A DNA stretch of 64,000 nucleotides from a virus, in IMG/VR virus record IMGVR_UViG_3300046532_001629, positions 5,779-69,778 of that record; one strand, given 5' to 3'. A model generated the notes under the pieces. That model saw only the letters and a list, made by a program, of their open reading frames with translations, was not told the DNA's origin and did not search any database. Positions 39,250-45,887 of the stretch are shown piece after piece (the first letter of the stretch is position 1; each line of letters starts with the position of its first letter). The position numbers were made by a program, and so were the translations under genes.

Positions 39250-39318
39250 TCTTTTAAAACTTATCTGTTATACTGTCTAAATACTATTGTAATGCCCATT
39301 TGGGGTTACATAATATAA

Positions 39319-39335
39319 CTTGCTTAATTAAGGAG
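39319..39335 (+). promoter_or_regulatory. ROSE-like RNA thermometer hairpin over the hsp20 SD
   Basis: CUU-G-CUU pairs with AAGGAG with a bulged G; contains UUGCU. Confidence 0.65.
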
Positions 39336-39341
39336 AAAACT

Positions 39342-39785
39342 ATGACAAGCAGACAGCTCGGAGACTTCGATGTCTTCAATTTCGGGAAATCATTCCCATT
39401 CGCAATCGGGTTCGACAGAACTCTTCAACTATTAGAACGTGCCAATCAGTCACCAACTAATACAAGCTACCCCCCTTACAATATTGTAAAACACGATGCA
39501 GAGAATTTCACCATCGAACTTGCAATTGCTGGGTTCACCAAGGATGATATTGATATCTCGAAAGAGAAGAACGTGTTAACTATCTTTGGTAAACAACCCG
39601 ATGATAAGGAAATCAAAAGAGAATTCATCCATAGGGGACTTGCAGGACGATCATTCAATCGTGTCTTTACACTTGCAGACGATATTATCGTCAAGGGTGC
39701 AGATATGAAAAATGGTATCTTGAGTGTCTCATTGGAGAGAATTGTGCCCGAAGAAGATAAACCCCAAGTAATTAAAGTTTCTTAA
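39342..39785 (+). CDS. Small heat-shock protein (Hsp20/IbpA-like)
   Basis: IGFDR, YPPYNIVK, IELAIAGF, HRGLAGRSF and NGILSVSLER. Confidence 0.95.
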   Translation: MTSRQLGDFDVFNFGKSFPFAIGFDRTLQLLERANQSPTNTSYPPYNIVKHDAENFTIELAIAGFTKDDIDISKEKNVLTIFGKQPDDKEIKREFIHRGLAGRSFNRVFTLADDIIVKGADMKNGILSVSLERIVPEEDKPQVIKVS

Positions 39786-39854: not shown

Positions 39855-40379
39855 ATGTCAGAAGATATTCACATGGGATTACCCCTAGAGATTGGTCAAG
39901 AAGTACCAAACGTAAACTTAATGACCAAAACTGAAGATGGTATGGTCGCACTTAACACTAAAGAACAATTCGCAGGACAAAGAGTAGTCCTTTTTGCATT
40001 GCCTGGAGCTTTCACTCCAACCTGTTCAACAGCACATTTACCTGGCTTTGATGCATTGTATTCTCAGTTTGTAGAAAAGGGTATCGATGCAATCTATTGT
40101 CTATCAGTCAATGACACCTTTGCTATGAACAATTGGTTCGAACAATTGGGTATTAAAAATGTTAAACCTCTTGCAGATGGTAACGGTGAGTTCACTCACA
40201 AAATCGGTGCAGAGTGTAAGAAATCAAATCTTGGATTCGGATATAGATCATGGAGATATGCATTAGTATTGAATGACGGCAAAGTCGAACACCTGTTCAT
40301 CGAAGAAGGTTTCGAAGACAACATTGAGACCGACCCATTTGAAGTATCAAGTGCAGAATACGTTCTAGATTCTATCTAA
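39855..40379 (+). CDS. Peroxiredoxin (Prx5/redoxin type)
   Basis: LPGAFTPTCS, SVND, DGNGEFT and GYRSWRYA. Confidence 0.95.
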   Translation: MSEDIHMGLPLEIGQEVPNVNLMTKTEDGMVALNTKEQFAGQRVVLFALPGAFTPTCSTAHLPGFDALYSQFVEKGIDAIYCLSVNDTFAMNNWFEQLGIKNVKPLADGNGEFTHKIGAECKKSNLGFGYRSWRYALVLNDGKVEHLFIEEGFEDNIETDPFEVSSAEYVLDSI

Positions 40380-40422
40380 AAACCACTAGTCACAATGTGC
40401 TAAATATAGTATAATGGAGACT

Positions 40423-41703
40423 ATGATGAAAGATAATCCGAACAAGTATTTTCAATACCACTTAGAAGACCTTCACCGCAACAGTGCAAAAAAGGAGTTT
40501 AATTACATTACTTTCTTTGCTGGTGGTGGAGGTTCTTCATGTGGTTATAAACTCGCAGGTGGTGACGTTCGTTATATGAACGAGTTCCAACAACTACACG
40601 TTGACACTTACCTAGAAAACTTCCCTAACACTACCCATGAATGCAGAGACATCAAAGAAGTCACTGCAGAAGGAATCATGGAACTCAGTGGACTCAAAAA
40701 ATACGAATTAGATATCATGGATGGGTCACCACCTTGTCCACCATTTTCTATGGCAGGTTCCAAGAAAGAAGGTTGGAACAAAGAGAAGATGGCTTATGGT
40801 ATGAAACAACAGAACATTGAAGACCTTACATGGGAAATGATTAGGATTGCCGAAGGGTTAATGCCTAAAGTTATAATATGTGAGAACGTGAAAGGTCTCT
40901 CAATGGACTATGCAAGAGACCATCTAAACAGGATGGTAAACGACTTTGAGAAACTTGGATACTCAGTTACTTGGAAAGTCATGAAGGGTCATCAGCACGG
41001 TGTACCTCAGAAGAGAGAAAGAGTATTCATGGTTGGTGTACGTGATGATGTACTAGAAGGTATCGGTATGCCTTGGATGTGTATGTCTTCCGTCTTCCCC
41101 GACCCAGTAAAAGAATTTGCATCCATTGAAGATGCAATCCATGATTTAGAAACAGATGAACAAAATATTATAGATGCAGCTTATCTAGAAAATGCAATGA
41201 ATGAATCATCAAAAGGTCATTGGGTAAATGGATTCGATGTACACCCAAAAGAAGAACTTGCACATTGCACTCCTTGTAAAGGAATTGCAGGAATAGAGGA
41301 TAAAGAAAATCTTTCCTATGTTTCTATAGGTGATCATATCGTTGGCCCTTGGTTTGAAGAGAATGCAAAACTTGGTAATATTGCAGAAGAAGATGTAAAA
41401 CATTCTTACTACATGTCAAGAATCGTACCTAAACATCTTGCAGCCCATTCATTAACTGAATCGGGTTGTCAACCAAAATTTATGGGTGGTAATCATTTTC
41501 ATCACAATGGAAAACGAATCTACACACCTAAAGAGATGGTAAGGTTAATGACTTTACCTAATGACTATAAAATGACTGGAGACTATGACGACAAGGGAGC
41601 AAGAATCGGATTGATGGTTGCACCACTTTGTATGTATCGTCTAGTCGAGGAAGTCAAACAACAGATATTGGAACCATGGAATATACAACAACAACAGACT
41701 TAG
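40423..41703 (+). CDS. DNA (cytosine-5)-methyltransferase
   Basis: FAGGGG (motif I), GSPPC (IV), ENV (VI) and QKRERVF (VIII). Confidence 0.94.
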   Translation: MMKDNPNKYFQYHLEDLHRNSAKKEFNYITFFAGGGGSSCGYKLAGGDVRYMNEFQQLHVDTYLENFPNTTHECRDIKEVTAEGIMELSGLKKYELDIMDGSPPCPPFSMAGSKKEGWNKEKMAYGMKQQNIEDLTWEMIRIAEGLMPKVIICENVKGLSMDYARDHLNRMVNDFEKLGYSVTWKVMKGHQHGVPQKRERVFMVGVRDDVLEGIGMPWMCMSSVFPDPVKEFASIEDAIHDLETDEQNIIDAAYLENAMNESSKGHWVNGFDVHPKEELAHCTPCKGIAGIEDKENLSYVSIGDHIVGPWFEENAKLGNIAEEDVKHSYYMSRIVPKHLAAHSLTESGCQPKFMGGNHFHHNGKRIYTPKEMVRLMTLPNDYKMTGDYDDKGARIGLMVAPLCMYRLVEEVKQQILEPWNIQQQQT

Positions 41704-42677
41704 GATTTAAAGACACATTCAAAAAATGGAATGGTAAGTATCTTACAGAAGATTCTTACGATACTGTTATATCATCTATTGAATACGATGGTGATGTTAT
41801 CAAAATCTATAAACCTCATGGTACACTCATGGGTAAAACATTACTTGCATGTATCGTAAAGAAAGCATACAAGGGTAAAGTATATCAAACAGTTAAAGAC
41901 ACTCTGTTCTCAATAGATGACACATCTACAATGAGAGCAAACGCTGCAGGCCCCATTGATCACGATGCCATGAAAGCAAAAGGATTAATCGAAGGTAAAG
42001 ATTATGTCCTTAGAACACCTAACAGTTATTACCCTCTAAAGAAGAACGGTGAGTTCAATCGTATTGCAGAAGCAAATGAGATTCATTCTGTATTGATCGG
42101 TTATAAAAGAGGAAGGTTCACTGGTATGATCAAAGCTAGTGGATGGATGCAAAAGAAATCTAATGCAAAAAAATTAGAAGCATTATCACAGATTGCAAAT
42201 GTCAATGAGGAAGCATTGAAAAATGCAGTTCCCGAAGTATACAACTTACAAAAAACCTTTGCAGACAATTGTATAGACAAGAAGTATCACATTGGTGGTT
42301 CACCGATGACAGCCTTATCTGCAAACAAGTACTCCACAGGTGGGACAACAAAGATGTCTGCTCACTTGGATGGTAAAGATTTAGAATTCGGTATGACTAC
42401 AATGTGTGTATTCCGTATCGGAGAATTCGATGGTGCATACTTATGTTTCCCTAGATATGGTATTGCTATTGAAGCAGATGATGGAGACGTACTGATTGCA
42501 GATTCAAATGAATTGCATGGTGTAACACCTATCACTGGTGAAGGAGTGCGACTATCATGTGTTGCGTACTGTGACGAACATGTTGCAACTATGGGTGAAG
42601 CAGGTAAAACTGAGAAACCTATCGGCCCCCATGCAGGAAACTATGAAGAGAAGGGTACACTAGGAGATTTTTTATGA
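41676..42677 (+). CDS. TET/JBP-family 2OG-Fe(II) dioxygenase (5mC oxidase candidate)
   Basis: AHLDGKD (HxD), GDVLIADSNELHGVTPI (distal H) and RLSCVAY (R); overlaps the C5-MTase. Confidence 0.85.
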   Translation: MEYTTTTDLGFKDTFKKWNGKYLTEDSYDTVISSIEYDGDVIKIYKPHGTLMGKTLLACIVKKAYKGKVYQTVKDTLFSIDDTSTMRANAAGPIDHDAMKAKGLIEGKDYVLRTPNSYYPLKKNGEFNRIAEANEIHSVLIGYKRGRFTGMIKASGWMQKKSNAKKLEALSQIANVNEEALKNAVPEVYNLQKTFADNCIDKKYHIGGSPMTALSANKYSTGGTTKMSAHLDGKDLEFGMTTMCVFRIGEFDGAYLCFPRYGIAIEADDGDVLIADSNELHGVTPITGEGVRLSCVAYCDEHVATMGEAGKTEKPIGPHAGNYEEKGTLGDFL

Positions 42678-43378
42678 AAATAGTTATTACAGGTTCAAGA
42701 GGTTTTATAGGAAAATATCTACGAAGTGCTTTAGATAAACATAATATTGTAGAATGGGATACTAAAATAGGTAAAGACATAAAAGATTTTTATTTAGATG
42801 GTGATGAAGATTTTGTTATTCATCTTGCTGGTCTAATCTCACCAAGAGATTCTATTAACGAACCACACGATTACTGGTTGCAAAATGTAGAATACAGTAA
42901 AAAAATATTTGATACATGTAAAGATGTTCCAATGGTTTATGCTTCTAGTGCAGCTGCAAAAGAATATTGGAGAAGTCCATATGGAACAACTAAAAAAGTT
43001 TTAGAAACACTTGCACATAAAGGTCATGTTGGATTAAGATTTGAAAGCATCTATGGTGATGGTGCCTCAGATATAGGATTAATAACTAGAATCAAAAATG
43101 GAACTATTAAGTACCATACAAACCATATAAGAGACTTTATTCATATAGATGATATTATAGGTGCTATCTTATTGTTTATCATGCAAGGAACACGAGATGC
43201 ACTACCATATTATGAAGTTGGAACTGGTAAAGAACATTTAGTTTCAGATGTAGTAAAACATTTCGGAGTAGATGTTCCCGAAAAAGAAGGGGATGATATT
43301 GAAATATTTCGTAGTATTGCAGATATAACAGAAATGAAAAAGTTAGGATGGAAAGCAATGAGGAGTGTGTATGATTGA
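42674..43378 (+). CDS. NAD-dependent nucleotide-sugar epimerase/dehydratase
   Basis: ITGSRGFIG, IHLAG, YASSAA, YGTTK and RDFIHIDD. Confidence 0.92.
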   Translation: MKIVITGSRGFIGKYLRSALDKHNIVEWDTKIGKDIKDFYLDGDEDFVIHLAGLISPRDSINEPHDYWLQNVEYSKKIFDTCKDVPMVYASSAAAKEYWRSPYGTTKKVLETLAHKGHVGLRFESIYGDGASDIGLITRIKNGTIKYHTNHIRDFIHIDDIIGAILLFIMQGTRDALPYYEVGTGKEHLVSDVVKHFGVDVPEKEGDDIEIFRSIADITEMKKLGWKAMRSVYD

Positions 43379-44189
43379 TTTAGTTATTTGTACATATAAA
43401 AGATTGGATAAACAGACCACTCTTGGAAACATTCCAAAAAAGTTTAGAGATAACGTAACTTTAGTTGTTCAACCCCAAGAGGAAGCTGAAGCACGAAAAG
43501 TTCATCCAAATATATTTGTTCTTGATGGTGATAACATTGGTTATGCAAGAACTATCGAACAAACAACAAAAGAGTTTGCAGTTAATCGTAATAATCACTT
43601 TTGGTTGTTTGATGATGATTTAAGGTTTGTATATAATGAAGAAACAGAGTATCAAGTAACAGGCAAGAAACACACGTTTACAGAGCAACATTTTGAACAA
43701 ATGTTAATAGATATTGAAAAAGAATTAGATTCTGGCTTGATGCATGGTGCATTAGGAACCACTTGGAATTTCCCTTGGGGAAAACTTCCATACATTGAAA
43801 ATAGTAGAATGTCGGGAAACAAAGTATACAATAAAAACCTTGCAAAAATATGGAACGATATTGACTGGGTTGGATGTTGTGGTGCAGAAGATTTCTATGT
43901 AAATCTGCAATTGTTAACTACAGGACATGCAAACAAAGTATGGCATAATTATGTTGTTGACCCCGGCCCGAGTTATCAAGATGGTGGTTGTTCTGAGTAT
44001 AGAGATGTAGAATTCCATAATAAATCATGTGAAGACCTACAAAAATTATTCCCTGAGTTTGTTAAACTTAGAACCAAAAAAACATTGTCAGGGCCTTGGA
44101 AGAACCTAGACAGACTAGGAGCATCTGTGCAATGGAAAAAAGCATATTTGTCTTCTCAAGTGGCAACAATAAAGGATTTCATGTCATAA
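43371..44189 (+). CDS. GT-A fold glycosyltransferase (TET-associated/GREB1-like)
   Basis: VICTYKR, LVVQPQE, FDDDL, AED..NLQLL and GGCSEYR. Confidence 0.8.
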   Translation: MIDLVICTYKRLDKQTTLGNIPKKFRDNVTLVVQPQEEAEARKVHPNIFVLDGDNIGYARTIEQTTKEFAVNRNNHFWLFDDDLRFVYNEETEYQVTGKKHTFTEQHFEQMLIDIEKELDSGLMHGALGTTWNFPWGKLPYIENSRMSGNKVYNKNLAKIWNDIDWVGCCGAEDFYVNLQLLTTGHANKVWHNYVVDPGPSYQDGGCSEYRDVEFHNKSCEDLQKLFPEFVKLRTKKTLSGPWKNLDRLGASVQWKKAYLSSQVATIKDFMS

Positions 44190-44887
44190 TGAAACCGAGA
44201 TATACAAATATAGTTAATCCTCTAATGGGTCACACAGGTAACGTGATATACAGGACTGTTATAAATGGGATGCTGATTAAGGTTAAAGAAACCCCAACAT
44301 CGATTTCATTACATTATGGTGAAGGTGCAATAACTCAAGCATCAATCCTAAAGAACTACCCCGAAAGATTACAATATGATTATGCAAGACATTTAGTACA
44401 AGTGGTAAACCACGTTGAATCACCGTCACGAGCATTAGTACTTGGATTAGGTGGTGGAGTCATACCAACATGGTTACATCAAAACACTAAGTGTCAAATT
44501 GATGTGGTGGATATCATACCCGACTTAAAGGACATTGCAGAAAAGTATTTTAAAATGCCCTCAGACAATCGAATCAAGGTGATCACCGAAGATGCATACC
44601 ATTTTGTACAAGACACATTGCTAACAGGGATATATGACATCATAATTGTAGATGTTTGTGATGATACACGGATAGAGAACAAATTCATTTCACCTAAATT
44701 CTATGAAGGGTTGAAGAGTATTCTAACACCTAAAGGTCGTGTTGCAATTAATTATTTTGTAGCACCACAAACATATGACGACTACATGATTGGGCTTAAA
44801 GATGCCTTCACAAATGTCGTTGAACAGTATAAAAATTTGGAGGGTGGTAAAAACCATATCACAATTTGTAATGACAACACTATTTGA
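44189..44887 (+). CDS. Spermidine-synthase-like SAM-dependent transferase
   Basis: LVLGLGGG, VVDI, DA and YDIIIVD motifs; LTPKGRVAIN. Confidence 0.8.
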   Translation: MKPRYTNIVNPLMGHTGNVIYRTVINGMLIKVKETPTSISLHYGEGAITQASILKNYPERLQYDYARHLVQVVNHVESPSRALVLGLGGGVIPTWLHQNTKCQIDVVDIIPDLKDIAEKYFKMPSDNRIKVITEDAYHFVQDTLLTGIYDIIIVDVCDDTRIENKFISPKFYEGLKSILTPKGRVAINYFVAPQTYDDYMIGLKDAFTNVVEQYKNLEGGKNHITICNDNTI

Positions 44888-45194
44888 AGATAATGTCTAC
44901 ATGGTTGTAGAGAACCTACACCAGTCTGACGCAGCGATTGAACTTACTGGTGGTGAATGGGACGGACTCGTATACCAATACGGAAAGGTCGGGTTCGAAA
45001 ATGGCAAACCCAACATAAATTTTGAAAGAACTATAAGAAGATTACCACATAATGTCGAAAAGACCGAAGAGGAACTTAAGAAACACCTAAATAATGTTGA
45101 ACTAAAAACACTCATGGGTGACATTCTAGTAGAAGTCATGCAAGCACAAATAAGGAAAGATAATGAACAAAGAAGTACTAAAGGAACAGATTAA
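44871..45194 (+). CDS. Conserved T4-like hypothetical protein
   Basis: AIELTGGEWDGLVYQYGKV...MGDILVE; overlaps both neighbours. Confidence 0.65.
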   Translation: MTTLFEDNVYMVVENLHQSDAAIELTGGEWDGLVYQYGKVGFENGKPNINFERTIRRLPHNVEKTEEELKKHLNNVELKTLMGDILVEVMQAQIRKDNEQRSTKGTD

Positions 45195-45615: not shown

Positions 45616-45877
45616 CATTTTTGCACTAAGACTTCTTGGTGGAGAAACTATTTTAGGTAGGGTAACCACATCACGATTTAGTAGTAAAACAGTCATCGCA
45701 GAACCACAACTTTGTATTGTGGAAGTCACTGATGGTAAAATGGAAATCAGTCTTGCACCGTGGAATCCATGGGCAAGAGAGTACAGATTCGAAATCAACA
45801 ATAGAAACATCGTTACAATGTTTAAGGTTCGACCCAATTTAGAACAGAATTACAAAGTAGCGACAGGAAACAAATAG
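45608..45877 (+). CDS. Hypothetical Sm-like protein (start uncertain)
   Basis: ALRLLGGETILG...LAPW pattern. Confidence 0.6.
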   Translation: MDNIFALRLLGGETILGRVTTSRFSSKTVIAEPQLCIVEVTDGKMEISLAPWNPWAREYRFEINNRNIVTMFKVRPNLEQNYKVATGNK

Positions 45878-45887
45878 GAAATATATT

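What the first reader, a model, noticed from the sequence alone, without database searches (positions are those of the whole stretch)
40423..44887. Five-gene cytosine hypermodification operon with an extra spermidine-synthase-like transferase
Overlapping genes encode a C5-MTase, a TET/JBP dioxygenase, an NDP-sugar epimerase, a GT-A glycosyltransferase and a SAM-dependent transferase. The 5mC to 5hmC to glycosyl-hmC post-replicative route is established for phage TET clusters. The dedicated epimerase implies a non-glucose sugar, and the last enzyme could add a methyl or aminopropyl group, giving a possibly undescribed base. The epimerase and GT genes look more AT-rich than their neighbours, consistent with an exchangeable sugar cassette.
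Basis: partly seen in the sequence, partly recalled or inferred. Interest (0 to 1): 0.75.

Follow-up and report, generated by a model that had tools for sequence, protein, structure and literature searches.

The report
Phage TET sugar-cytosine cluster, already published type
A marine T4-like phage carries five overlapping genes that most likely methylate, oxidise and then sugar-coat cytosines in its own DNA; this gene layout, including the odd fifth enzyme, has been published and partly tested, so it is a known kind whose last step is still unexplained.

Summary
Five overlapping + strand genes at 40423-44887 encode a C5-cytosine methylase, a TET/JBP dioxygenase, a short SDR epimerase, a TET-associated GT-A glycosyltransferase and a spermidine-synthase-fold enzyme. 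The epimerase and GT are the two most AT-rich long ORFs in the window.

The layout is already in print. Burke 2021 and Pyle 2023 describe C5-MT/TET/epimerase/GT clusters. Their "contig 69" has the same extra "polyamine aminopropyltransferase". In E. coli, epimerase69 with GT69 gave HexNAc- and di-HexNAc-methylcytosine, and the fifth enzyme changed nothing.

Two points are new here:
- **Cofactor.** The fifth enzyme lacks the acidic residue that ties true spermidine synthases to decarboxylated SAM (GLGGG, not GGGDG). Its best solved relative by sequence is the METTL13 N-terminal methyltransferase domain. It is more likely a SAM-dependent amine methyltransferase.
- **Linkage.** It is not a fixed partner of the TET cluster. 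It is absent from 8 other MT/TET/GT loci. In relatives it sits beside at least three other upstream gene sets at the same site, including an amino-methylase-like plus FemX-like pair.

The scan's earlier notes hold no look-alike of this gene on other DNA.

The parts
39300..39785 (+). Hsp20 gene: upstream context that published 'clade I/A' MT/TET contigs also carry
   Evidence: PF00011 1e-16. Burke 2021 passage: clade I/A members have a co-occurring HSP and redoxin.
39855..40379 (+). Redoxin/AhpC-type peroxiredoxin immediately upstream of the cluster
   Evidence: PF08534 7e-29. Same flank in L003 and L022.
40387..40415 (+). Sigma-70-like hexamer pair (TAGTCA-17-TATAAT) before the MTase start; weak evidence only
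   Evidence: Promoter-like counts in the region equal the shuffle expectation.
40423..41703 (+). C5-cytosine DNA methyltransferase (makes 5mC)
   Evidence: PF00145 6e-49 and TIGR00675 1e-42. Motifs FAGGGG, PPC, ENV, QKRER. 52% identical to the Melnitz methylase.
41676..42677 (+). TET/JBP-family 5-methylpyrimidine dioxygenase (5mC to 5hmC)
   Evidence: PF12851 1e-13, 51 bits against a cut-off of 34.9. HLD...H...RLS. Always follows the MTase in L001, L015-L018 and L104-L106; in L103 the contig starts within TET, so the MTase is not visible.
42674..43378 (+). Short (234 aa) extended-SDR NDP-sugar epimerase/dehydratase-family enzyme; sugar specificity unresolved
   Evidence: PF01370 2e-16 and phrog_540 1e-34. 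GSRGFIG and YGTTK. All NCBIfam equivalogs far below cut-off. Same short length in L015 (234 aa) and L017 (242 aa).
43371..44189 (+). TET-associated GT-A glycosyltransferase (sugar onto 5hmC)
   Evidence: PF20691 TAGT 4e-11 and phrog_842 9e-34. DDD and EDF motifs, matching the R...DDD...EDY/F signature described in Pyle 2023 section 8.
44189..44887 (+). Gene 5: spermidine-synthase-fold transferase of the GLGGG type, probably SAM-dependent
   Evidence: PF01564 1e-9. AF2 model pLDDT 91.7. Foldseek to spermidine synthases, TMq 0.67-0.78. Best PDB sequence hit is the METTL13 C-domain, 6e-25 by profile. No acidic residue at the GGG(D/E)G position.
44901..45194 (+). Small conserved ORF (phrog_3998) that follows gene 5 in every close relative; backbone, function unknown

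Best explanation
Genes 1-4 form a post-replicative cytosine hypermodification pathway of the published 'subclass II' type.
- The C5-methylase writes 5mC on phage DNA.
- The TET-like dioxygenase oxidises it to 5hmC.
- The short SDR enzyme converts a host NDP-sugar into the isomer the transferase needs.
- The GT-A TAGT enzyme puts that sugar on the 5hmC hydroxyl, possibly twice.
- If the window is the same viral population as published contig 69, the sugar is an N-acetylhexosamine.

These steps are inferred here from family membership and synteny. They were shown experimentally only for published homologues.

Gene 5 has the complete spermidine-synthase fold and keeps the catalytic aspartate. It has lost the acidic residue, and the Gln/His position, that hold the aminopropyl amine of decarboxylated SAM. 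It is therefore most likely a SAM-dependent methyltransferase acting on an amine, as plant putrescine N-methyltransferase and the METTL13 C-domain do, rather than an aminopropyltransferase.

Gene 5 belongs to the conserved backbone next to a swappable slot. Related phages keep it beside other upstream gene sets, and other MT/TET/GT clusters lack it. So it is not an obligatory step of the TET pathway, and its acceptor here is unknown.
For: Domain and motif evidence for all five genes.

Published analogue:
- Burke 2021 (PMC8256090), Fig. 2 legend and discussion passages. They list C5-MT, TET, epimerase, GT, redoxin, DNA polymerase and PAPT, name contig 69 for the epimerase and the PAPT, and describe clade I/A with HSP and redoxin.
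- Pyle 2023 passages. Subclass II is the epimerase+GT pair. Epimerase69 with GT69 gave 5-HexNAcmC and di-HexNAcmC.

Gene 5 fold and relatives:
- AF2 model pLDDT 91.7.
- Full-length matches to spermidine synthases.
- Top PDB sequence hit is METTL13 (5wcj, SAH complex), at 6e-25 by profile and 8.5e-13 by single sequence.

Gene 5 cofactor site:
- G89 aligns with the D/E of GGGDG or GGGEG in PfSpdS and 7xif.
- In a 65-sequence family alignment this column is G 53, A 7, I 2, T 2, V 1, never acidic. D155, the equivalent of SpdS Asp173 and METTL13 Asp575, is 65 of 65.
- All 7 phage copies of this type carry GLG(G/A)G.
- Literature: Asp103 of DsSPDS1 binds the dcSAM amine and is thought to repel the SAM carboxylate. 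D103I abolished SPDS activity and created methyltransferase activity (PMC3725402 passages). [quoted passage not shown]

Synteny:
- No gene 5 hit in L015-L018 or L103-L106, 8 MT/TET/GT loci with 1-10 kb held downstream of the GT.
- No gene 5 hit anywhere in the 129.6-kb record G001 or in the complete Melnitz genome.
- L022 (polB 77%) has the same backbone with a different two-gene module before gene 5.
- L006 and L007 are 100% identical from about 20 nt before gene 5 and unrelated upstream.
Against: - No chemistry was done here, so every enzymatic step is inferred.
- Identity with contig 69 could not be checked, because accessions are in SI that was not available. The HexNAc assignment is therefore conditional.
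- The SAM-versus-dcSAM call rests on aligned residues. A T. cruzi spermidine synthase has been crystallised with SAM (3bwc, listed), so binding is not strictly exclusive.
- NCBIfam's best hit for gene 5 is still a 'polyamine aminopropyltransferase' model (NF003380, 94 bits against a cut-off of 304).
- If gene 5 were a SAM-dependent methylase of the HexNAc-hmC product, E. coli has SAM and a new product might have been expected. Pyle 2023 saw none with the contig 69 enzyme. This argues against the sugar-hmC as acceptor, not against SAM use.
- Gene 5 overlaps the GT stop codon (TAATG) and follows a GT-like or unknown 424-aa gene in all three cassette variants. A functional tie therefore cannot be excluded.
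- Gene 5 shows relaxed constraint against L006 (dN/dS 0.45, compared with 0.05 for polB and 0.14 for the lysozyme).
Confidence: 0.7

Rival explanations
1. Gene 5 is a tailoring enzyme of this very pathway. It adds a methyl group to the sugar or base after glycosylation and gives a base not yet described.
For: - 1-nt TAATG overlap with the GT gene.
- In the window's lineage gene 5 follows the last gene of three different sugar-type cassettes.
- In other phages its relatives sit next to DNA-methylase-like genes.
- One copy is fused to another, unidentified domain in L008.
Against: - The published test of the analogous enzyme of contig 69 changed no product in E. coli (Pyle 2023 passage).
- 8 MT/TET/GT loci lack it.
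- Characterised enzymes of this fold alkylate amines, and HexNAc-hmC offers no free aliphatic amine. This point is inference from PMC3725402 and PMC6109062.
- Gene 5 stays the same (100% nt) while the cassette upstream changes completely between L006 and L007.
Confidence: 0.18
2. Gene 5 is a genuine polyamine aminopropyltransferase. It makes or attaches a polyamine that neutralises DNA charge for packaging (the Burke 2021 suggestion), or it is a plain polyamine auxiliary metabolic gene.
For: - Whole-chain fold match to spermidine synthases, including the N-terminal beta domain.
- A D-x-x-D motif (DVCD) with the same spacing as SpdS Asp173/Asp176 (with the PMC6109062 passage).
- NCBIfam's best hits carry that name.
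- HTVC008M carries a distant copy away from any MT/TET genes.
Against: - No acidic residue at the GGG(D/E)G position in 65 of 65 family members or in 7 of 7 phage copies of this type. The one phage protein with GGAEGA and DLPDP (L013) is clearly a different type.
- The Gln79 position of DsSPDS1 is Ala in gene 5.
- All NCBIfam equivalog scores are far below cut-off.
- No SAM decarboxylase in the 69.8-kb record, though it is only 39% complete, so this is weak.
Confidence: 0.15
3. Gene 5 is a hold-over from a different three-gene module: an amino-methylase-like protein, a FemX-like tandem GNAT and gene 5. The first two genes of that module were replaced in this lineage by the MT/TET/epimerase/GT cassette. 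Its real substrate is made by that other module, for example an aminoacylated base or another amine. In this phage it is idle or re-used.
For: - L022 has the same backbone (cyclase, Hsp20, redoxin ... orf6, lysozyme, orf8, orf9, polB at 77%), with the 460-aa and 351-aa genes in place of MT/TET/epimerase/GT. Its gene 5 is 50% identical, in line with orf6/orf8/orf9 at 51-57%.
- The trio recurs at another genomic site (after gp45/gp44) in L011/L012/L023, and with PLP-dependent and HD genes in L009/L010.
- The 351-aa protein folds like FemX or the MprF C-domain (model pLDDT 84.9; Foldseek E 5e-11, TMq 0.53-0.56).
- Relaxed dN/dS of 0.45.
- The negative PAPT result in E. coli.
Against: - The order of events is inferred without a rooted tree.
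- Gene 5 is intact, with all family-invariant residues, in the window and in L003-L007.
- The target of the other module is unknown. It gave no Pfam or PDB sequence hit for the 351-aa protein and only a weak N6_N4_Mtase hit for the other.
Confidence: 0.25

Closest known systems
Metavirome 'contig 69' cluster, subclass II C5-MT/5mYOX/epimerase/GT pathway with PAPT (Burke et al. 2021 PNAS, PMC8256090; Pyle et al. 2023 bioRxiv 10.1101/2023.12.21.572611)
   Same: The same five enzyme types. HSP and redoxin flank as in clade I/A. DNA polymerase and lysozyme nearby. GT-A with DDD and EDF motifs. Source database IMG/VR or GOV.
   Different: Identity with contig 69 could not be verified, because accessions and gene maps are in figures and SI that I could not see. 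Here the fifth enzyme is read as a probable SAM-dependent methyltransferase and as backbone rather than pathway member. The papers do not say this in the passages I read.
T-even phage glucosyl-hydroxymethylcytosine (T4 alpha- and beta-glucosyltransferases)
   Same: The end product is a sugar on the hydroxymethyl group of cytosine in phage DNA, presumably for protection from host nucleases.
   Different: By recalled textbook knowledge, T4 makes hmC before replication from dCMP (gp42) and uses UDP-glucose directly. Here 5hmC would be made on DNA by methylase plus TET, the GT is a TAGT GT-A enzyme, and an epimerase supplies the sugar.
Base J pathway of kinetoplastids (JBP dioxygenase + JGT glucosyltransferase)
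   Same: A TET/JBP dioxygenase oxidises a 5-methylpyrimidine in DNA and a GT-A enzyme glycosylates the product. Pyle 2023 section 8 reports that phage GT-A models match T. cruzi JGT.
   Different: Base J starts from thymine, uses glucose, and has no methylase, epimerase or SpeE-fold enzyme.
METTL13 C-terminal domain (MT13-C) and plant putrescine N-methyltransferase: SAM-dependent amine methyltransferases with a spermidine-synthase fold
   Same: GLGGG-type motif I without the SpdS aspartate. Equivalents of METTL13 Glu524 (D108), Asp551 (D135) and Asp575 (D155) are present. METTL13 is the best PDB sequence hit. The SPDS to PMT switch by loss of the same Asp is documented.
   Different: Gene 5 keeps the N-terminal beta domain of spermidine synthases, which the METTL13 match does not cover (188 aligned columns against about 230). 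Identity is only 26%. The acceptor is unknown.
Alpha-putrescinylthymine of phage PhiW-14
   Same: A polyamine-type cation on phage DNA, the precedent invoked by Burke 2021 for the PAPT gene.
   Different: That pathway goes through hmU pyrophosphorylation and substitution (as summarised in the Burke 2021 passages), not through a SpeE-fold enzyme. No kinase or aG/PT-pyrophosphorylase gene was seen in the window's cluster.

Membership tests
Phage C5-MT/5mYOX (TET) hypermodification cluster, subclass II (epimerase + GT pair) | C5-cytosine methyltransferase directly next to a TET/JBP dioxygenase | tested here: met
   PF00145 and PF12851, both above cut-off, with a 28-nt overlap.
Phage C5-MT/5mYOX (TET) hypermodification cluster, subclass II (epimerase + GT pair) | Sugar epimerase adjacent to a glycosyltransferase beside the MT/TET pair | tested here: met
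   PF01370 then PF20691, overlapping by 8 nt. The definition is from Pyle 2023 section 5.
Phage C5-MT/5mYOX (TET) hypermodification cluster, subclass II (epimerase + GT pair) | GT-A active-site signature R...DDD...EDY/F | tested here: met
   DDD at residue 81 and EDF at residue 173 of the GT. The signature is quoted in Pyle 2023 section 8. The Arg was seen in the translation (KRLDK) but not aligned to their sequences.
Phage C5-MT/5mYOX (TET) hypermodification cluster, subclass II (epimerase + GT pair) | Glycosylated 5hmC actually present in DNA | not testable with these tools
   Needs nucleoside LC-MS.
Spermidine synthase / polyamine aminopropyltransferase (SpeE) | Two-domain SpeE fold (N-terminal beta domain + Rossmann domain) | tested here: met
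   AF2 pLDDT 91.7. Foldseek TMq 0.67-0.78 to spermidine synthases over about 230 columns.
Spermidine synthase / polyamine aminopropyltransferase (SpeE) | Acidic residue in GGG(D/E)G that binds the dcSAM amine and disfavours SAM | tested here: not met
   GLGGG. G89 aligns with the D/E. 0 of 65 family members are acidic at that column. The role of the residue is from PMC3725402 passages.
Spermidine synthase / polyamine aminopropyltransferase (SpeE) | Catalytic Asp of motif Post II (human Asp173) | tested here: met
   D155, invariant in 65 of 65, aligned to the SpdS VD and to METTL13 D575.
Spermidine synthase / polyamine aminopropyltransferase (SpeE) | Score above an NCBIfam equivalog cut-off | tested here: not met
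   Best is NF003380, 94 bits against 304. TIGR00417 speE scores 42.5 against 249.6.
SpeE-fold SAM-dependent amine methyltransferases (METTL13 C-domain type) | Motif I without the Asp, acidic Post I residue, adenine-binding Asp, and Post II Asp required for activity | tested here: met
   G88, D108, D135 and D155 align with METTL13 G503, E524, D551 and D575. The numbering was derived from the alignment and the PMC6109062 passages.
SpeE-fold SAM-dependent amine methyltransferases (METTL13 C-domain type) | Methyl transfer from SAM to an amine | not testable with these tools
   Needs an enzyme assay.

The most novel reading that the evidence does not exclude
Gene 5 and its phage relatives could be a shared last-step amine methyltransferase of several alternative DNA-hypermodification modules that swap in and out of one genomic slot. 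One of these is an undescribed module, made of an SPPY amino-methylase-like protein and a FemX-like (aminoacyl-tRNA-dependent type) tandem-GNAT transferase, that might put an amino acid on DNA. In the window's phage the enzyme would then give a base beyond glycosyl-hmC that E. coli reconstitution missed because the right acceptor was not made there.
Probability: 0.12. Interest if true: 0.8.

Novelty: already known. Interest (0 to 1): 0.33.

Why it matters
The cluster is one more example of how marine phages hide cytosines under sugars, a route already demonstrated for homologous clusters. The fifth enzyme remains open. It has been labelled a polyamine aminopropyltransferase since 2021 and gave a null result in E. 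coli.

The residue analysis here predicts SAM rather than dcSAM as its cofactor. The synteny shows it travels with the phage backbone and with a different, uncharacterised module. That redirects the experiment towards methyl transfer to an amine acceptor, and towards the L022-type trio. It also explains why adding the enzyme to the glycosylation pathway did nothing.

Tried and rejected
- **The look-up of encoding contigs.** I used the search for related loci instead.
- **Longer contigs for the L005/L007 cassette.** Searches with its 424-aa and 277-aa proteins returned only L005 and L007 themselves. Whether MT/TET lie upstream there is unknown.
- **SAM decarboxylase (PF02675).** None in the window's record. 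The record is 39% complete, so this says little.
- **Alternative-module proteins by sequence.**
  - No PDB sequence match for the FemX-like protein profile (A3) or the amino-methylase-like profile (A4).
  - Relaxed Pfam scans of these proteins and of the L008 N-domain gave nothing significant; the best was 2OG-FeII_Oxy_5 at E 0.69.
  - The Atlas feature search gave only leads: LPG_synthase_C in 18-51% of members of some clusters. The later fold search agreed with those leads.
- **Epimerase subtype.** It could not be resolved. Heptose 6-epimerase and GalE models tie at about 1e-11, both far below cut-off.
- **Promoter and terminator scan.** No counts above shuffle expectation.
- **Not run.** I did not build a rooted gene 5 tree, so the order of cassette replacement is inference. 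No complex prediction was run, because no binding claim is made.
- **Supplements.** SI Table S1 and Fig. S2 of Burke 2021 and Fig. S2 of Pyle 2023 may show the accession and map of contig 69, and could settle whether it is this same virus.

Full report
**What is there**

The window is a fragment of an uncultured viral record: 69.8 kb, CheckV completeness 39%. Its nearest isolates by DNA or protein are the marine T4-like Methylophilales phage Melnitz and Pelagibacter phage HTVC008M.

Between 40423 and 44887 five + strand ORFs follow one another with overlaps of 28, 4, 8 and 1 nt. Each passes the curated Pfam cut-off:
- C5 DNA methylase, 167.6 bits.
- Tet_JBP, 51.0 bits against a cut-off of 34.9.
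- NAD-dependent epimerase/dehydratase, 60.3 bits.
- TET-associated glycosyltransferase (TAGT), 43.6 bits against 27.5.
- Spermine/spermidine synthase domain, 38.5 bits against 22.9.

PHROGs agrees for the first four and has no family for the fifth. The catalytic signatures expected from each family are in the translations. Upstream lie a CHASE2 cyclase, Hsp20 and a redoxin. Downstream lie a small conserved ORF, a lysozyme, two small ORFs and a family B DNA polymerase.

**Composition**

The epimerase (GC 0.313, GC3 0.140) and the GT (GC 0.343, GC3 0.249) are the two lowest of 49 long + strand ORFs. Only 0.08% of equal-sized sliding windows are as AT-rich as the pair.

The same holds for their homologues in two other lineages:
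- L015: epimerase GC3 0.128 and GT 0.220, against MT 0.211 and TET 0.216.
- L017: epimerase GC3 0.160 and GT 0.180, against MT 0.266 and TET 0.323.

Between the window and L015, the epimerase is 90% identical with dS 0.24 and the GT is 78% with dS 0.59. The flanking MT and TET are 74% and 69% identical with dS 1.09 and 1.57. The extreme AT3 bias may depress dS somewhat. Even so, the four- to six-fold gap for the epimerase, together with the lower dN, fits a sugar cassette that moved between phages more recently than MT/TET diverged.

**The literature already has this layout**

*Burke et al. 2021 (PMC8256090; I read the outline-level passages returned by 'find').*
- They screened GOV 2.0 and IMG/VR for contigs with both a C5-MT and a TET.
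- Their Figure 2 legend lists exactly the gene types seen here: C5-MT, TET/JBP, GT, epimerase, redoxin, DNA polymerase, CTP transferase and polyamine aminopropyltransferase (PAPT).
- They name contigs 57 and 69 for the epimerase.
- They note that clade I/A members have a co-occurring HSP and redoxin.

*Pyle et al. 2023 (bioRxiv 10.1101/2023.12.21.572611; abstract, sections 5 and 8 and 'find' passages).*
- They define subclass II as an adjacent epimerase and GT.
- They show that these GTs depend on their epimerase, with one exception (contig 91).
- They report that epimerase 69 plus GT69 gave 5-HexNAc-methylcytosine and the di-HexNAc form in E. coli.
[quoted passage not shown] The window is therefore probably the same viral population as contig 69. 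I could not verify this, because the accessions are in supplementary material. Either way the five-gene design, the speculation about its fifth enzyme and a first experimental test are in print. Two literature searches for further work on such an enzyme in phage DNA modification returned only these two papers as relevant.

**What gene 5 is**

Fold and family size:
- A profile of gene 5 and seven relatives found 23,109 cluster representatives at E up to 0.001, and 420 at 1e-30.
- I aligned the window protein with 64 of the proteins then at hand. These were top-ranked hits of normal length. Long or fused ones, and P0006 and P0008, were left out.
- The AlphaFold model from that alignment has mean pLDDT 91.7.
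- It matches spermidine synthases over the whole chain, including the N-terminal beta domain (TMq 0.67-0.78).

By sequence, the best solved relative is not a spermidine synthase. It is the C-terminal domain of human METTL13 in complex with SAH: 6e-25 with the profile and 8.5e-13 with the single protein. That domain is a SAM-dependent methyltransferase of a protein N-terminal amine which the authors describe as distantly related to spermidine synthase (PMC6109062 passages).

The discriminating residues point the same way.
- Spermidine synthases carry GGG(D/E)G. Gene 5 has GLGGG, with G89 at the acidic position.
- In the 65-sequence alignment that column is G 53, A 7, I 2, T 2, V 1.
- All seven phage copies of this type have GLG(G/A)G. 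The distant L013 protein has GGAEGA and DLPDP, so it is a different, classical type.
- According to PMC3725402 (passages), this Asp (D103 of Datura SPDS1) and Gln79 bind the amine of decarboxylated SAM, and the Asp is thought to repel the SAM carboxylate. D103I abolished spermidine synthase activity and produced putrescine N-methyltransferase activity.
- Gene 5 has Ala at the Gln79 position.
- It keeps the equivalents of METTL13 Glu524, Asp551 and Asp575 (D108, D135 and D155; D155 is invariant in 65 of 65) and a D-x-x-D spacing like SpdS Asp173/Asp176.

My reading, at roughly 55%, is a SAM-dependent methyltransferase that attacks an amine. A true aminopropyltransferase is about 15-20%. Other SAM-derived transfers, such as aminocarboxypropyl, cannot be excluded.

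**Is gene 5 part of the pathway?**

The synteny speaks against an obligatory role.

MT/TET/GT clusters without gene 5:
- L015/L016: MT 74%, TET 69%, epimerase 90%, GT 79%.
- L017/L018: 52-57% identity, directly after polB, as in Melnitz and the published clade II/B.
- L103-L106: a second TAGT type.
- That is 8 loci with 1-10 kb held downstream of the GT and no gene 5 hit.
- The whole 129.6-kb record behind L015 (71% complete) and the complete Melnitz genome also have none.

Gene 5 relatives without MT/TET/epimerase/GT:
- In close relatives of the window's phage (polB 98% identical), gene 5 (75% identical) and the downstream backbone are kept while the upstream gene differs. L006 has a second-type TAGT. 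L005/L007 have a kinase/phosphatase-like protein, a heptose-1-phosphate adenylyltransferase-like protein and a 424-aa unknown.
- L006 and L007 are 100% identical from about 20 nt before the gene 5 start and unrelated before it.
- Whether MT/TET lie further upstream in these short contigs cannot be seen.
- In L022 (polB 77%) the backbone is the same on both sides. The slot holds a 460-aa protein with amino-methyltransferase motifs (DTSSGWGDR, TSPPYF; weak Pfam N6_N4_Mtase in its relatives) and a 351-aa protein, followed by gene 5 at 50% identity.
- That trio recurs after gp45/gp44 in L011/L012/L023, and with a PLP-dependent enzyme and an HD protein in L009/L010.
- The 351-aa protein has no Pfam or PDB sequence match. 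Its model (pLDDT 84.9) resembles FemX, the MprF C-terminal domain and other tandem GNAT transferases (Foldseek E 5e-11 to 1e-8, TMq about 0.5-0.56). An Atlas feature search had pointed the same way.
- In L008 a gene 5-like domain is fused behind an unidentified 215-aa domain.
- HTVC008M has a distant copy (25-27%) among unrelated genes.
- Of the 80 metagenome loci kept from 272 confirmed relatives, 78 showed only the gene 5-type hit and look like cellular homologues at 25-37% identity.

The window's own record has no FemX-like or amino-methylase-like gene.

Taken together, gene 5 behaves as a backbone gene at the edge of a swappable slot, or as the surviving third gene of another module, rather than as a dedicated fifth step of the TET pathway. 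Its dN/dS against L006 is 0.45, compared with 0.05 for polB and 0.14 for the lysozyme. The divergence is concentrated in its 5' part.

The opposite view also has support:
- Gene 5 is translationally coupled to the GT.
- It is intact.
- It always sits next to genes that plausibly modify DNA.

**Most likely mechanism**

Shown here: gene content, order, motifs, fold of gene 5, synteny and composition.

Shown by others for homologues: 5mC formation, oxidation to 5hmC by phage TETs, and epimerase-dependent glycosylation of 5hmC.

Inferred for this window:
- MTase writes 5mC.
- TET makes 5hmC.
- The epimerase supplies an isomerised NDP-sugar.
- TAGT attaches it, perhaps processively.
- The modified DNA presumably resists host nucleases.

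The role of gene 5 is not established. The best guess is SAM-dependent N-methylation of an amine that the E. coli reconstruction did not provide.

**Verdict**

This is a real and correctly read cluster, but it is an already published kind, so interest is modest.

Noticed in passing
L022:1524-4586 (also L011:4021-7062, L010:1876-5937): A recurring three-gene module in related marine myophages: a 446-477-aa amino-methyltransferase-like protein (TSPPYF motif), a 342-358-aa protein that folds like FemX or the MprF C-domain (tandem GNAT), and a gene 5-like SpeE-fold enzyme. In L022 it occupies exactly the slot that MT/TET/epimerase/GT fill in the window. It may be an undescribed modification system.
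   Followed up: partly
L008:7347-8732: A 461-aa fusion of an unidentified ~215-aa N-terminal domain (best Pfam hint 2OG-FeII_Oxy_5, E 0.69, not significant) with a gene 5-like domain.
   Followed up: partly
L012/L023:3892-4570: The gene 5-like ORF is split into two frames (residues 1-180 and 188-233 of the intact L011 protein). This is either a frameshift or an assembly error.
   Followed up: no
L007:25-2555 (same in L005): An alternative cassette upstream of gene 5: a 277-aa phosphatase/kinase-like protein, a 150-aa D-glycero-beta-D-manno-heptose-1-phosphate adenylyltransferase-like protein (TIGR02199, 1e-21, below cut-off), and a 424-aa protein with no family. It probably matches the 'CTP transferase' contigs drawn by Burke 2021.
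   Followed up: partly
window 40387-40415 and 40400-40406: A sigma-70-like hexamer pair and a CTAAATA late-promoter-like motif lie just before the MTase start codon. GGAG lies 4 nt before the ATG at 40423.
   Followed up: partly
L006:2253-2540 / L007:4219-4506, against window about 45873-45880: Close relatives carry an extra ~290-nt segment with a 95-aa ORF between the orf8 and orf9 homologues. It is absent from the window.
   Followed up: no
L001:5208-6194 (Melnitz MZ577097.1): The TET/JBP homologue of the cultured OM43 phage Melnitz (52% identical to the window's) is annotated only as a hypothetical protein. It follows the annotated HhaI-type methylase directly after polB.
   Followed up: no
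L013:7872-8726: A phage-contig protein with GGAEGA and DLPDP motifs. This is a classical aminopropyltransferase type, unlike the other phage copies.
   Followed up: no
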